Shown here piece after piece: positions 24,072 through 31,052 of a stretch of 64,000 bases of DNA (positions are counted from its first letter, which is position 1; the number at the start of each line of letters is the position of its first letter). This stretch comes from Eledone cirrhosa (taxonomy: Eukaryota). The position numbers and the translations under genes were made by a program. Under the pieces are notes generated by a model. It was not told where the DNA came from. It worked only from the letters and a program-made list of their open reading frames with translations, and made no database searches. The DNA is taken from NCBI GenBank assembly GCA_964016885.1, contig OZ024742.1, forward strand, positions 17,546,001 to 17,610,000. Reading direction: 5' to 3'.

Positions 24072-24208
24072 TAGAAAGTGAGGTTTTTTTTACAAAATGA
24101 AAAATAACCGAGCTGTCCTACACGAGTGAAAGTATGAAGAAAAAGGGATGAAATCGAAAATGCAACTGGAGTCTTATTTTTTTTTTAAATATATATATTT
24201 ATTTGGTT

Positions 24209-24246
24209 CCTTTACCGGTTTCGCAGTTCTTCTGCTTTTCAAAAGG
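24209..24246 (-). ncRNA. Mirror copy of the same hammerhead motif in the left arm of the palindrome
   Basis: Exact reverse complement of 24319-24356. Confidence 0.75.
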
Positions 24247-24318
24247 TGAGTTGAGATGGAGGGTCTGTGGTTTTTCTCATATCTGTGAGAAAAACCACAG
24301 ACCCTCCATCTCAACTCA

Positions 24319-24356
24319 CCTTTTGAAAAGCAGAAGAACTGCGAAACCGGTAAAGG
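24319..24356 (+). ncRNA. Minimal type I hammerhead ribozyme motif, U3-A8 core variant
   Basis: CCTT-TTGAAAA-GCAG-AAGAA-CTGC-GAAA-CCGG-TA/AAGG. Stem I CCUU/AAGG, stem II GCAG/CUGC, palindromic loop III CCGG, GUA cleavage triplet (manual fold). Confidence 0.75.
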
Positions 24357-24443
24357 AACCAAATAAATATATATATTTTTTAAAAAAATAAGACTCCAGT
24401 TGCATTTTCGATTTCATCTCTTTTTCTATATATATATATATAT

Positions 24444-24573
24444 ATATGTAAGCCATGTGCAACCACGCAGTATTCTTCTTTCTTCTCATGTTTTATATAT
24501 ATATATATATATATATATATATAAAACATGAGAAGAAAGAAGAATACTGCGCGGTTGCACATGGGTTACATAT
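24444..24573. repeat. Palindrome with (TA)n at its centre
   Basis: ATATGTAAGCCATGTGCAACCACGCAGTATTCTTCTTTCTTCTCATGTTTT, then (AT)n, then its reverse complement with two mismatches. Confidence 0.95.
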
Positions 24574-24700
24574 GATAAAAAAGTCCTTCGTCAGTGATTT
24601 TCCAACCATCATTGGTATTACATCGCATTAAAAATCAGATACCTCAGGTTGGTGCGAGCAATAACTAAAAAAAGTTATTGGGACCAGAATTCGCGTAAGG
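24574..24700. repeat. Interspersed repeat fragment related to 63770-63875
   Basis: TCCTTCGTCAGT...ATCATTGGTATTACATCGC...GCGAGCAATAACTAAAAAAAGTTATTGGGA aligns by eye with TCCATCGTCAGT...ATCATAGGTATTTCTTCGC...GCGAACAATAACTAAAATAAGTTATTGGGA. Confidence 0.6.
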
Positions 24701-26740: not shown

Positions 26741-29700
26741 ATAGATAGATATGTTTCTTTATTAGCCACAGGGGCACAAAAGAAGGGGACAAATACAAAG
26801 GGGGAATTTTACATACAATATGAACGTGTAAAATATTAACACAAATGTAATTTAAAGTTAATCGATTTTCCCCAATAGGGGGAGACATTTCATATGGGTA
26901 AAACATACCCCTGAAAAAAATGTGCAACCCTCATCTCCAGGAGTACGAAGAGTTTGAATCCCCTTCCTCTCTTCCTCCTTTTCCTCAACCTAAAGGCTGA
27001 TATAGAGAGAAGGCCCATTCAGTCGGGCCATTCTCGCCACATTCACCCACCTTTCATAAAACTTGCTGCGGTACAGTACCTCTCTCTCCATTCTGGTTCT
27101 TCTTCCAGAGTGGTATTTGAAAAAAAGAATCAGTTGTTGGGCGGAGAGAAAGGTGTCTGACCTCAACCCTTTTAACCTCGTCCACCATACAACCTCTTTC
27201 GCCATAGCTATCACACAAAGGAAAACTGCCTCTCCTTCATTTTTGAAGGAGGGTGGCGGTTTGATTATGACAATGGACTCGGTGGTCAACTGGATTGGTC
27301 CCACCCGCGACAATAGTCATTCTACATAGCCCCACAAGTCGGTAATACCCGAGCAGTGTACAAATGCGTTGGCGACGGTTTCCTCGTCGCACACGCATCT
27401 CGGACAGATCTTTTTCGAAGGGTCCCTGCCCGGGCGCCCGTGTCTGTAGAGCTTGTCTCGAACTGGTAGAGCTCCTCGGTAGCACTGGATGGCCAGGGAC
27501 TTTTGGAAGTTGTCCATCGGTCCAAGGCGGAAGCTTCTACCGAACAGACTGGCCAGTTCGTCTTCCTCTACGTCTAGAGTTTCTCCGAGCGCGTCGTCCC
27601 ACTTGCTGCGGACCAACCCTCTATAGAATGGCGAAGTGGAGTCTCCACTGATCACCGGGTCCGCCTGCCAGAGGGCTGTGAGCGCCTGATCACATTAGAT
27701 GTGCCAGTCGCCCATTTTCCTCGGTCTTTGCTTGAACCAGGACTGCAGCTCGGTCAGCAAGACGAGTCGTGGGAATGCTCGCCTCATGAACGGGGCCCAC
27801 ACCGGTTGTCCGGTGAGGAATACGTGGAGGTGCCGCAGCCTGAGCGCGTGTTTGCGCATCGTCAGCCACAGCATTCCCAGCCCTCCGTTTGAAGGGCGTT
27901 GGCCAGCAGATGGATCTTCTCAACAAAGGAGCCCGCTTCTTCCAAAGGAATTGGAAGACCGCGTGCTCCATTTTGGTGAGCGTTTTGGCTGTACAAGGCA
28001 CCACGGTCAAGCGGTAGTAGATGACGGACGCTATAAAAGTGTTCGCCATCTCCGCTCGACCTTTCAAGGATAGTTTGCACTCGGCCCACTTCTGGGTGAG
28101 TTCAAACACCTTGGCCGTCACCTCGTTCCAGTTCTTCTCCACCTGGAGGTCCGGACCAAACTAGACCCCGAGCAGCTTTACTGGTCCTTCCGTCCAGCAT
28201 CCGACGACGCCATCGGAAGGCATCGGTCTGCCTCTCCACGATCCGAGTTGCAAACCGACGGACTTTTCCCGGTTCAGCTTCGCTCCTGTGAACCTTTCGT
28301 ATTCCTTCAGTAAGGTGCCAACTTCCTCGATTTGCGAGGTGCTCGACACCATTATCGTTACGTCGTCAGCGTAGGCCGACGCCGCTTTCCGCAGTCCCGA
28401 TTCCAGAGGGATGCCCTGCAATAGCTCCAAATTCCGCAGGAGTGGTTCGAGAGTCAGTACGTACAGAAGGGAGGAGAGAGGGCATCCCTGTCGAATGGAT
28501 CGCGTGATATGGAACGGCTCTGAGAGGTAGCCATTCACCTTGACCGTTGAGCAGATGTTGCTGTTGTGCATTGCAGTAATCCAGCCCCTGAACACGGGTC
28601 CGGATCTTGCCGCCTCGAGCACCGCATCCAGGTAACGATGGTCAACCCTATCGAAAGCCTTAGACTGATCCAGGTTGATCAGGCCCCAAAGCCGGGTTTA
28701 CACCCTACCCTCTATGATGTATCGCATGAGGTAGAGGTTGACGTGTATGGACCTGGTCGGGATTGCGCATGTCTGCGTTTTTCCCACCAGGTTTTCGACG
28801 ACAAGCACCAGCCTCTTTTCCAACACCTTGGCCAAAATCTGTAACTCTGTGTTTAGCATAGTCATGGGCCGGAAGTTGTCTATGTCAACCCCCTTGTTCT
28901 CGTCCTTCCTGACTAACGTGACTACGCCCCTGTTCACACAACTGGAAATTCTCCCGTTCTGCTGCCAGTTGTAGTAGACCACTTCCAGGAGACCGGAGTA
29001 CAAGTCCGGCATTGCTACGTAAAATTCGTAGCTTCGACCGTCGAGACCTGGAGATTTGCGTTTGCCGCATTGACTCAGCGCGTCTCCTATCTCAGCGGCT
29101 GAAATCGGCTTTTCGCAGAACTTCGCTTCGCTGTCCAAGAGTCGCGGTAGGCCGTCGAGGTATGGAACAAAATCCATAGCCCCTCCCGGCGCGCCGCCCT
29201 GCCCGAACAGCTGAGCAAAGTGCCGCTGAAAGGCCCCGCACATCTGCTTCGGCTCACGTATCACGCGTCCGTTTTGGTCCTTCAAAGACCGAATCGTGGA
29301 CTTGTTGCCACTTTTCGCCACCGTCACCCGGGCCCAGCTAACAGCTTTGGCTCCCTCGTTACCCAGAGCACGTATTTTGCTTCTGACAACGCAGCCCCCA
29401 TGCTTTGCGTCGAAGAACTGGTCCAATGCCGTTCTCGTTGCTGGCATGCTGGCTACGTTGCCACTTCTAATTGCCTCTTCTACTTCATCTACCAGTTCCT
29501 TCTCGGTCCTATTTCTATTTAACGCTAATTCTTTACTAAAAACTAACGAGTCTAATCTAACTGCCCTCTTGAGAGAGTTCTACCATATGTTGTTGACAAT
29601 GGCCCCTGTTAAGTGGTGTTTAACTAAAGTGCTAATCCGTCTACTGTAGGCTTTGCATGTCGGTAACGACAAGTTTAGCTTCCAGTAGCCGGGCCCTTGT

Positions 29701-30397
29701 CTATGGGTTCTATCAAGGTTGACCATGCAGGTCACTAGTTTGGGATCTGAATAAGCAAGCATGAACATTTGTGGACAGCTTAAAATGTCCCTATCTTTAT
29801 TTCTAACTAGAACTCTATCTAGGTACGATCTAGATGTTCCGCTTCGATTAGTCCACGTCCACAGTGGCACAGTCGGAAAATCTAGTCGATATCTATCGGC
29901 CAGGTCAAATCGGCCGGTTAACTGTTTGAGGCTGTTACACACCCCTTTTTCGGGACATGCTCCCACATAGTCCCAACGTGCATCTAGGATTTCATTCCAG
30001 TCCCCCACTAAAAGCAAGGAGCGGGACGTTCCCAGAAAAGCCTCTAGATGTTTGAAGAAGTCTGGCCGCGGTGTCCCGGATGGGGCATATGCGACCAACA
30101 GCCTGAAGGCTCCACCTTCACTACCGTCAACGTCTAGGACCACCAGTCGACTCTCCGGATCCAGATGTATCGTCTGTGTTACGAGGTCCAGGTGTTTCCA
30201 AAACGGCAACCCCACCCCCACCTCCCGGCTGACAGAGAGATGCGTAGATCTCAAAGTCATCGAAGATGCGGCCAGTTGTCGTTCGCTGTGGATCCTGGAC
30301 GCGCAAATGATTACTACATCCATGCTGTTCGACCTGAGGTCGTTTAAGAGTTTGCCCTGTTTCCAAGGCATCCCCAGGCCGCGTACATTTACTGAGC
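26741..30397 (-). mobile_element. Non-LTR retrotransposon, L1/Tx1-like, ORF2 plus 3' UTR only
   Basis: GC-rich block encoding APE, RT and a C-terminal Cys/His motif. The 3' end has AATAAA (plus-strand TTTATT 26758-63) and a short (TATC)n tail. No ORF1 upstream. Confidence 0.9.
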
Positions 30398-30401
30398 TCA
30401 A
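26990..30401 (-). pseudogene. Tx1-like ORF2 (apurinic endonuclease, reverse transcriptase, zinc-knuckle-like C-terminus), frameshifted
   Basis: APE: SVNVRGL, GDWN, SYLDR, GPGYWKLN. RT: KSPGLDG, FRPMTMLN, DQSKAFDRV (~28680-28650), RQGCPLS, YADD. C-terminus: KLSLKGRA, CPRC...ETVANAFVHC. Confidence 0.92.
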
Positions 30402-30578
30402 GCCGTTTCGACGGCTAATTCTGGACTAAAAGACATTTTAATCCAGAATTAGCCGTCGAAAAGGCTTGAGCTCAGCCGTCGGGGTCCTAATCGTTCATAT
30501 TACCCACTCTACTACCCTAAGTATTGAGTACTTTGGTGCGTTATGGTCCACCTGGTTCCTTACCACATTTCCTTCGTT
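30392..30578 (+). mobile_element. Inverted copy of the hammerhead-tail element with an 84-bp fold-back, ending in (TA)n
   Basis: 30436-30578 is a diverged reverse complement of 26460-26601. 30392-30475 is itself a hairpin. It carries only the 3' half of the HHR (GAAA-AGGC-TTGAGCTCA-GCCG-TC-GGGG). Confidence 0.88.
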
Positions 30579-30783
30579 ATATATATATATATATATATAT
30601 ATATATATATATATATATATATAGTTAAAAGAATAGAGGTGTAACACACAAGTTATTATATATTGGTAAACGGAATAGAAAATGCTGGCAAATTGTTCAC
30701 AGTTGAAAAATGGTTTAATTAGGAATAAAAGAGTATTAGTGATTGTATGGGTTAGTATTCAGTTGTGGTTTTAAGTTTTTAAG

Positions 30784-30821
30784 TTTTCACCGGTTGCGCA
30801 TTTCTAAATGCTTTTCAAAAA
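30784..30821 (-). ncRNA. Degenerate hammerhead-like motif (same design as 24319-24356)
   Basis: Minus strand TTT-TTGAAAA-GCATT-TAGA-AATGC-GCAA-CCGG-TG-AAAA. Two core positions deviate (GCAA for GAAA, UG for UH). Confidence 0.45.
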
Positions 30822-31052
30822 TAATTTTGAGATAGAGTGTCCGTGCTGTTTGCTCTGATCTGTATATATATATATATATATATATATATATATATATATA
30901 TATATATATATTCTAGTAATTCCTGGGGAATTAGTTGACCAAATGCTTTGCTTAATTGTTTTAATTATTTTTAAAAAATGTTATTCTTTCTCTTAGATTT
31001 CAGATAATTGACGTTGGTAGCTACTTCAATTGTCTTTAAATGTAACGTATGG

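What the first reader, a model, noticed from the sequence alone, without database searches (positions are those of the whole stretch)
24072..30860. Cluster of unrelated short elements sharing one architecture: hammerhead, short tail, then (TA)n
Seen: at least four sequence-unrelated HHR motif families lie within 7 kb (24319/24209, 25902, 26152 with its better copy at 63573, 26538, plus a degenerate one at 30784). In each un-rearranged copy the sense strand continues about 75-165 nt past the predicted cleavage site and then joins a (TA)n tract. The inverted fragments of the coding PLE (18018-18103, 23192-23246) also end in (TA)n. Established: PLE pseudo-LTRs and non-autonomous retrozymes carry type I HHRs, and some PLEs prefer microsatellite targets. 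Inference: this is a set of non-coding, ribozyme-bearing, (TA)n-targeting retro-inserts mobilised by PLE machinery and nesting repeatedly in the same TA tracts. I cannot tell from the window whether these families are already catalogued.
Basis: partly seen in the sequence, partly recalled or inferred. Interest (0 to 1): 0.75.

Follow-up and report, generated by a model that had tools for sequence, protein, structure and literature searches.

The report
Penelope jumping-gene tails in TA repeats
The short pieces with a predicted self-cutting RNA that sit beside TA repeats here are real, and each one matches the tail of a longer protein-coding Penelope-like jumping gene elsewhere in the genome, so they are likely broken-off ends of a known kind of element; one overlooked gene-less repeat among them carries a likely scrambled version of that RNA.

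Summary
The hammerhead–short tail–(TA)n pattern is real. The reading 'non-coding inserts' fails. All five named families continue upstream, in other genomic copies, into a PLE ORF ending in a GIY-YIG endonuclease. Three are Hydra-clade (25902, 26152/63573, 26538) and two Neptune-type (24319/24209, 30784). The last two are homologous, so there are four unrelated lineages. 522 of 566 copies end at (TA)n, at two fixed sites per family; 123 of 130 classifiable two-armed insertions pair one long with one short end. Published work covers this: Hydra PLEs with hammerheads and (TA)n targets, including one from Octopus (PMC8557442), and two internal RT starts bounding a tail (PMC11167929). Intact hammerheads occur about once per 14 kb in evenly spaced samples, so the cluster is dense but not exceptional. 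The scan had already reported both patterns on other DNA of this genome. Cleavage is untested.

The parts
24072..24427 (.). Family A: two-armed (head-to-head) 3' end of a Neptune-type PLE. Long arm 24072-24281 (-), short arm 24282-24427 (+). U3-A8 type I hammerhead in each arm (cores 24242- and 24323+). Flanked by (TA)n.
24447..24493 (+). Short 3' fragment of family E pointing into the (TA)15 at 24494-24523
   Evidence: direct reading
24524..25015 (-). Family E: near-complete ~525-nt ORF-less unit. Predicted type-SGC permuted hammerhead: block S 24643-24631, block G 24621-24614, block C 24601-24588. GAAA reads GTAA in this copy.
25171..25300 (.). Second family D insertion, two-armed and truncated, without the first half of the hammerhead core
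   Evidence: direct reading; same form in loci
25429..25503 (.). Small decayed inverted remnant, D-like by eye; relatives in a few loci
25533..26069 (+). Family B: 5'-truncated 3' UTR of a Hydra-clade PLE; C3-G8 type I hammerhead, core 25902, cleavage after 25957
26107..26382 (.). Family C (diverged copy): two-armed 3' end of a Hydra-clade PLE. Short arm (-) with a damaged hammerhead (core 26204-26198); long-end fragment (+) without it.
26461..26682 (-). Family D: 5'-truncated 3' end of a Hydra-clade PLE; U3-A8 type I hammerhead with long stem II, core 26643-26637, cleavage 26558/26557
26741..30390 (-). Separate LINE (AP endonuclease, RT, zf-RVT; broken by stops), natural 3' end near 26741; not part of the hammerhead families
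30395..30577 (.). Two-armed copy of a D-related subfamily; long arm (+) ends at the (TA)23 at 30578
30624..30862 (-). Family A2: 3' end of a second Neptune-type PLE; hammerhead-like motif with GCAA and, in this copy, GUG (core 30818-30812)
18349..23244 (-). Coding PLE 'F' (RT plus C-terminal GIY-YIG with a CX4CxxC linker; broken by stops and a frameshift) with partial tandem and inverted short arm. Separate family; no type I hammerhead found by my descriptor.
63438..63700 (-). Better-preserved family C copy; hammerhead core 63625, cleavage after 63581

Best explanation
The five hammerhead families match the 3' ends of five protein-coding Penelope-like element (PLE) families in this genome, three Hydra-clade and two Neptune-type, and are likely 5'-truncated copies written into (TA)n tracts by each family's own RT/GIY-YIG protein. 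Shown here: the hammerhead lies in the 3' UTR about 0.6-1.3 kb downstream of the endonuclease end; copies end at (TA)n at one of two fixed sites 32-83 nt apart; 5' ends vary; two-armed insertions nearly always pair one long with one short end. Inferred, by analogy with the in vitro Anolis PLE (PMC11167929): the endonuclease nicks both strands of a TA tract, reverse transcription starts from each nick at one of two internal RNA sites downstream of the hammerhead, copying usually stops early, and the two copies are joined head to head. Each insertion leaves TA on both sides, so later insertions land beside earlier ones. The hammerheads probably cleave as dimers or with protein help (palindromic or weak stem III); this is untested.
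For: ORF linkage (k of n loci holding the family's endonuclease C-terminus at >=70% identity that have the hammerhead end downstream on the same strand; some loci overlap): B 15 of 16, D 28 of 30, A 25 of 27, A2 9 of 10. C was linked at 1 place and a second. Unbiased sample of A (first 30 of 3,202 exact 44-mer matches): 20 of 30 continue upstream into the UTR at variable lengths, 2 of them into the ORF, with the same alleles as the short palindromes; 28 of 30 end at one of two sites. Clade motifs: CxCX5C linker, no CCHH, and CxxC before the conserved E in B and D (C has GxCX5C in the one copy translated); CX4CxxC plus CCHH in A and A2. 3' ends at TA: 522 of 566 distinct copies of seven families. 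Pairing: 123 long+short, 6 long+long, 1 short+short, 10 other of 140. Orientation without any query: 22 of 29 hammerheads in 400 kb of evenly spaced DNA have (TA)n within 200 nt downstream, 7 of 29 upstream. Selection on the core: positions 3/8 are C-G in 122 and U-A in 63 of 196 hits, all other combinations 11; 231 hits against 0 in reversed DNA.
Against: No intact full-length ORF was seen for any family, so present-day autonomy is not shown, and a family could be moved in trans by a relative. Clades rest on motifs, not on a tree with reference proteins. The C link rests on two places. Most loci were picked as best matches to window copies, which favours young, full-length arms and under-counts short+short pairs; one locus (L028) contributes three pairs. 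Within families the copies are too similar for stem covariation. Monomer folding energies are unremarkable and Rfam has no hit. Family A2 carries GCAA in place of GAAA in the copies inspected, which may be inactive. The Anolis work found no strand difference in RT start site in vitro, so the long/short pairing is not explained by it directly.
Confidence: 0.9

Rival explanations
1. The five families are non-autonomous, non-coding retrozyme-like elements mobilised in trans by a PLE such as the one at 18349-23244.
For: Most copies are short and ORF-free. A forms a 355-bp palindrome with a recurrent junction in many of the 30 top hits. At first the palindromic copies seemed to carry alleles absent from ORF-linked copies. 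ORF-free tandem hammerhead units do exist in this genome: E, and a 311-bp array in L366.
Against: The fixed junction came from my query, which began at the junction. In the unbiased sample 20 of 30 A copies run into the UTR and 2 into the ORF with the young alleles. B, C, D and A2 are also ORF-linked. F's 3' end shows no similarity to the five ends.
Confidence: 0.06
2. The palindromes are MITE-like DNA transposons that use TA targets, and the hammerheads are passive cargo.
For: TA flanks and long terminal inverted repeats.
Against: The arms are unequal (one long and one short end), junctions and 5' lengths vary widely, single-armed copies are common, and the sequence runs into RT/endonuclease ORFs.
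Confidence: 0.02
3. Two-armed insertions arise when a single cDNA folds back on itself, or by later genomic rearrangement, rather than by priming from both target ends.
For: Both arms share alleles: at A site 110, 23 of 24 two-armed loci are concordant, 9 with the minor allele in both arms. Junctions fall at short inverted microhomologies.
Against: Either arm can carry the tail relative to the same junction. Pairs with 0.2-1.8 kb of extra sequence on one arm exist. Joins between different families occur (L101, A with D; L120/L189, A2 with the D UTR). This rival concerns mechanism only, not the identity of the elements.
Confidence: 0.3

Closest known systems
Hydra-clade C-terminal EN+ PLEs, including Hydra-1_Obim of Octopus bimaculoides (Craig et al. 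2021, PMC8557442; section 11 read, passages, supplement searches and part 2 of 59)
   Same: B, C and D: C-terminal GIY-YIG, CxCX5C linker, no CCHH, type I hammerhead near the 3' end, (TA)n insertion, inverted 5'-truncated copies, optional tail.
   Different: Their hammerheads differ by eye from the listed Hydra-1_oBim motif, so these are other families. 3' UTRs are 0.9-1.5 kb. Tails are 70-83 nt against the published 30-40. D has the U3-A8 core and a 56-nt stem II region; every Hydra row in the part of File S2 I saw has CUGA.
Neptune-clade PLEs (motifs and microsatellite bias as described in PMC8557442, passages)
   Same: A and A2: CX4CxxC linker before a C-terminal GIY-YIG with CCHH, hammerhead in the 3' end, (TA)n insertion.
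   Different: Placed by motif only. A2 copies carry GCAA in place of GAAA.
Poseidon_Ac of Anolis (Frangieh et al. 2024, PMC11167929; parts 1-3 of 4 read)
   Same: Two RT start sites downstream of the hammerhead bound the tail; both target strands are nicked and extended; AT-rich targets; hammerhead protein-assisted and dispensable for insertion in vitro.
   Different: Different clade. Its two sites showed no strand difference in vitro, whereas the two arms here nearly always use different sites.
Minimal PLE hammerheads including the U3-A8 variant (Cervera and de la Peña 2014, PMC4209133; parts 1-2 of 4 read)
   Same: Short or palindromic stem III, U3-A8 covariation, mostly solitary motifs ascribed to truncated PLEs, pairs on opposite strands 100-700 bp apart.
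   Different: No cephalopod data in the parts read.
Metazoan non-LTR retrozymes (PMC7229834, passages; bioRxiv 10.64898/2026.07.22.740005, parts 1-2 of 5)
   Same: Family E: ORF-free unit of a few hundred nt in head-to-tail tandems with one ribozyme motif per unit.
   Different: A-D and A2 are not ORF-free tandems. E has a predicted permuted (SGC) motif, not a type I hammerhead.
Type-SGC hammerheads, HRIMA-1 and variants (Eckert et al. 2023, PMC10085705; passages)
   Same: Family E: block order S, G, C with stems I and III pairing across blocks.
   Different: Described from metatranscriptomes; the paper reports none from genomes of known organisms except one GCS candidate. In E only one stem II pair is evident, followed by conserved G-A and G-G apposition.

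Membership tests
EN+ Penelope-like elements (A, A2, B, C, D) | [quoted passage not shown] | tested here: met
   all copies seen are broken or partial
EN+ Penelope-like elements (A, A2, B, C, D) | 5'-truncated copies, inverted copy at the 5' side, tail at one end only | tested here: met
EN+ Penelope-like elements (A, A2, B, C, D) | RT groups with PLE RTs in a tree with reference sequences | not tested
   no reference proteins were held as tool sequences; motif comparison only
Hydra clade (B, C, D) | CxCX5C linker and no CCHH motif | tested here: met
   B CSCRVKSEC, D CNCPDRSTC; C has GNCRIESNC in the one copy translated
Hydra clade (B, C, D) | [quoted passage not shown] | tested here: met
   B CALC and CPH; D CNLC and CKH (L256, L257); C CHLC, CxH not seen
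Hydra clade (B, C, D) | RWK and DKT motifs in the N-terminal region | tested here: inconclusive
   D copies read RWR and NKT; region not recovered for B and C
Hydra clade (B, C, D) | Type I hammerhead near the 3' end and (TA)n insertion | tested here: met
Neptune clade (A, A2) | CX2-5CxxC linker and CCHH in a C-terminal endonuclease | tested here: met
   A2 CDRPNCGIC, A CGRSNCGTC; Nematis not excluded by a tree
Non-LTR retrozyme (A, A2, B, C, D) | ORF-free unit in head-to-tail tandems | tested here: not met
   ORF-linked with variable 5' ends
Non-LTR retrozyme (E) | ORF-free unit in head-to-tail tandems | tested here: met
   26 of 30 unbiased unit starts are preceded by the unit's own 3' end; array of at least 15 units in L253/L254; no shared upstream ORF
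Non-LTR retrozyme (E) | Type I hammerhead in each unit | tested here: not met
   no type I fold; SGC order instead
Non-LTR retrozyme (E) | Expressed as linear and circular RNA | not testable with these tools
   needs RNA from the animal
Type-SGC hammerhead (E) | Blocks S, G, C in that order with stems I and III paired | tested here: met
   74 copies, 37 distinct motifs, 0 in reversed DNA; several pair types per stem, though this pairing is required by the descriptor
Type-SGC hammerhead (E) | Stem II | tested here: inconclusive
   pair 10.1-11.1, not in the descriptor, pairs in 34 of 37 (shuffle mean 26.6, 0 of 5000 reach 34; relatedness not controlled); the next two positions are G-A and G-G
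Hammerhead ribozyme (all families) | Site-specific self-cleavage | not testable with these tools
   needs in vitro transcription

The most novel reading that the evidence does not exclude
Family E, inside the interval, is a non-autonomous PLE-moved tandem element whose ribozyme is a working non-circularly permuted (SGC) hammerhead with a reduced stem II, a form I did not find in print for animal genomes. In addition, the near-strict long/short pairing of two-armed insertions across Hydra and Neptune families reflects a PLE dimer assigning a different RT start site to each target strand.
Probability: 0.6. Interest if true: 0.65.

Novelty: new member of a known kind. Interest (0 to 1): 0.33.

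Why it matters
The finding as given is the expected footprint of TA-targeting PLEs, already described for Octopus in kind. It adds five families and shows that short hammerhead islands should be traced upstream before being called non-coding. Two by-products have more value. The long/short pairing (123 of 130) is a sharp genomic constraint on how PLEs use their two RT start sites, and the existing in vitro PLE system can test it. Family E offers a high-copy animal candidate for a permuted hammerhead that standard descriptors miss.

Tried and rejected
Rfam scan of the window: no hammerhead family at E<=5, only spurious hairpin matches and a 5S-like hit. Monomer folding z-scores were not informative. 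Pfam did not recognise the PLE endonuclease and scored the RT below cut-off. I tested the idea that A is a self-replicating palindromic subfamily; it looked plausible and was rejected by the unbiased sample. I tested whether the LINE is part of a D-LINE composite: 0 of 40 other matches extended past the LINE's own 3' end. The window's coding PLE as parent of the five families was rejected. Counting the seven window-defined families in 40 evenly spaced 10-kb stretches gave 36 hits (maximum 5) against 12 in the cluster, but the families were defined here, so I did not use this as proof of a hotspot. A sequence look-up of family E in the scan's notes found nothing. Lünse et al. 2017 on dimeric PLE hammerheads was not held and is recalled only. 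The Octopus vulgaris repeat paper (PMC13282606, passages) contains neither 'ribozyme' nor 'Hydra'. Supplements of the bioRxiv preprint were not seen, and Repbase/Dfam were not available, so whether these exact families are catalogued is open.
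Full report
Observation. The interval is a chain of short inserts separated by (TA)n tracts, plus a 3.65-kb LINE. A type I hammerhead descriptor allowing C3-G8 or U3-A8 finds A on both arms of a 355-bp palindrome, B, and the copy of C at 63625. 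It found 3 cores in the interval against 0.005 in shuffles, 0 of 200 reaching 3. D was missed by that first descriptor because of its long, bulged stem II; it is read directly at 26643-26557 (-) and found by the wider descriptor in other copies. The 26152 and 30784 copies are damaged. A and A2 are homologous. Against: Rfam gave no hammerhead hit and monomer folding is not unusual.

Copy number and selection. The window lies in a 3.0-Gb genome; 'octopus-like' is a label from the scan's earlier notes, not a result of mine. First-look candidates were 793 (A), 2,084 (B), 1,038 (C), 1,825 (D), 2,061 (E) and 140 (A2); a 44-mer of A has 3,202 exact matches. In 338 loci (1.16 Mb) the descriptor gave 231 distinct hits and 0 in reversed DNA. 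Positions 3 and 8 were C-G in 122 and U-A in 63 of 196 hits, all other combinations 11. That is the covariation reported for PLE hammerheads (PMC4209133, parts 1-2 of 4).

What the families are. I followed each family upstream. B runs through about 1.2 kb of UTR into an RT/GIY-YIG ORF with a CxCX5C linker. C does so at two places. D does so after about 0.67 kb. These three show Hydra-clade motifs as defined in PMC8557442, section 11 (alignment). That paper lists (TA)n as target for almost all Hydra families and includes Hydra-1_Obim from Octopus with a hammerhead. A2 and A run into ORFs with CX4CxxC and CCHH motifs, Neptune-type. Among loci holding the family's endonuclease end, the hammerhead end follows on the same strand in 15 of 16 (B), 28 of 30 (D), 25 of 27 (A) and 9 of 10 (A2); some of these loci overlap. 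No intact full-length ORF was seen.

Test of non-autonomy. The best hits to A were nearly all short palindromes with one junction and seemed to carry their own alleles. This was query bias. Of the first 30 exact matches along contig C1, 20 continue into the UTR to varying lengths and 2 reach the ORF with the same alleles; 17 end at the distal site, 11 at the proximal site, 2 elsewhere. The short copies are therefore a truncation series of a coding family. The window's own coding PLE (F) also ends at (TA)n in 53 of 59 copies but is not similar to the five ends.

Ends and mechanism. Across seven families, 522 of 566 distinct copies abut (TA)n at the 3' end. Six families use two end sites, 60 (A), 32 (A2), 70-78 (B), 83 (C), 76 (D) and 53 (F) nt apart. 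Of 140 head-to-head pairs, 123 are long+short, 6 long+long, 1 short+short and 10 other; in the unbiased A sample 11 of 13 are long+short and none long+long or short+short. Best-hit selection under-counts short+short pairs but not long+long ones. PMC8557442 describes inverted 5' copies and a tail at one end. PMC11167929 shows in vitro that a PLE protein nicks and extends both strands of AT-rich DNA and starts RT at two internal sites that bound the tail, without needing hammerhead cleavage. I infer the same route here. Whether the two arms come from one RNA or two is open: arms share alleles at site 110 in 23 of 24 loci, but joins between families exist.

Is the cluster special? In 40 evenly spaced 10-kb stretches there are 29 intact type I motifs (1 hit in the reversed control). 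22 have (TA)n within 200 nt downstream and 7 upstream. The 8 stretches without TA tracts have none. Five of 40 stretches hold 3 or more, against 4 in this 7.4-kb cluster. The cluster is in the upper tail of an ordinary distribution.

It is a ~525-nt unit: 433 exact matches to a 31-mer from its start, 26 of the first 30 preceded by the unit's own 3' end with no shared ORF upstream, and an array of at least 15 units on C15. It has only half of a type I core. Notes from the scan pointed me to permuted hammerheads and to PMC10085705 (passages). An SGC-order descriptor found 74 copies and 37 distinct motifs in 1.65 Mb, 0 in reversed DNA. Pair 10.1-11.1, not part of the descriptor, is paired in 34 of 37 with four pair types (relatedness not controlled). 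Stem II beyond that pair is not Watson-Crick. The window's copy has GTAA for GAAA and is probably inactive. Two paper searches listed nothing reporting this form in an animal genome; I saw those results as listings and abstract starts only. I did not test the notes' claim of a link to Naiad elements.

Verdict. The named elements are new families of known PLE clades, and the scan has reported the same pattern before in this and other genomes. Interest is modest and comes mostly from family E and the pairing rule. Ribozyme activity is untested throughout.

Noticed in passing
window 24524-25015 (-); arrays in L253/L254: ORF-free ~525-nt tandem unit with a predicted SGC-permuted hammerhead; core mutated in this copy
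   Followed up: partly
window 26741-30390 (-): 5'-truncated LINE (AP endonuclease, RT, zf-RVT) lying between D-type arms; other copies end in (TATC)n or TA-like repeats; a 60-nt piece at about 26683-26740 has no match in my loci
   Followed up: partly
window 30624-30862; L220-L249: Family A2 copies inspected carry GCAA in place of the conserved GAAA, and some a GUG cleavage triplet; possibly a family spreading with an inactive or variant core
   Followed up: no
window 18349-18600 (-): The coding PLE F has no type I hammerhead by my descriptor in its 3' end, yet shows the same two-end and (TA)n pattern
   Followed up: partly
L101; L120/L189: Head-to-head or in-line joins between different PLE families (A with D; A2 with the D UTR), possibly template switching or two-RNA insertions
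   Followed up: no
L366: Tandem array of five 311-bp units, each with an intact type I hammerhead: a retrozyme-like family
   Followed up: no
L001-L338, bystander hits: 69 type I hits outside families A-D, in about 30 motif groups (some are C relatives); 55 of 69 lie nearer a downstream than an upstream TA tract
   Followed up: partly
window 52716-52836 (+): 5S rRNA-like sequence (64 bits, Rfam RF00001) directly after a 21.6-kb 33-bp satellite; possibly a 5S-derived SINE or pseudogene
   Followed up: no
window 1-15675 and 31053-52716: Two long satellites with 50-bp and 33-bp units flank the element-rich stretch
   Followed up: no
window 18136-18348 (-): SINE-like sequence (tRNA-type head, by eye) sits between the 3' end of PLE F and the TA tract where other F copies end directly
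   Followed up: no
window 57100-59020 (-): Decayed DDE-type transposase ORFs with terminal repeats by eye (pogo/Tc1-like; label recalled, not tested)
   Followed up: no
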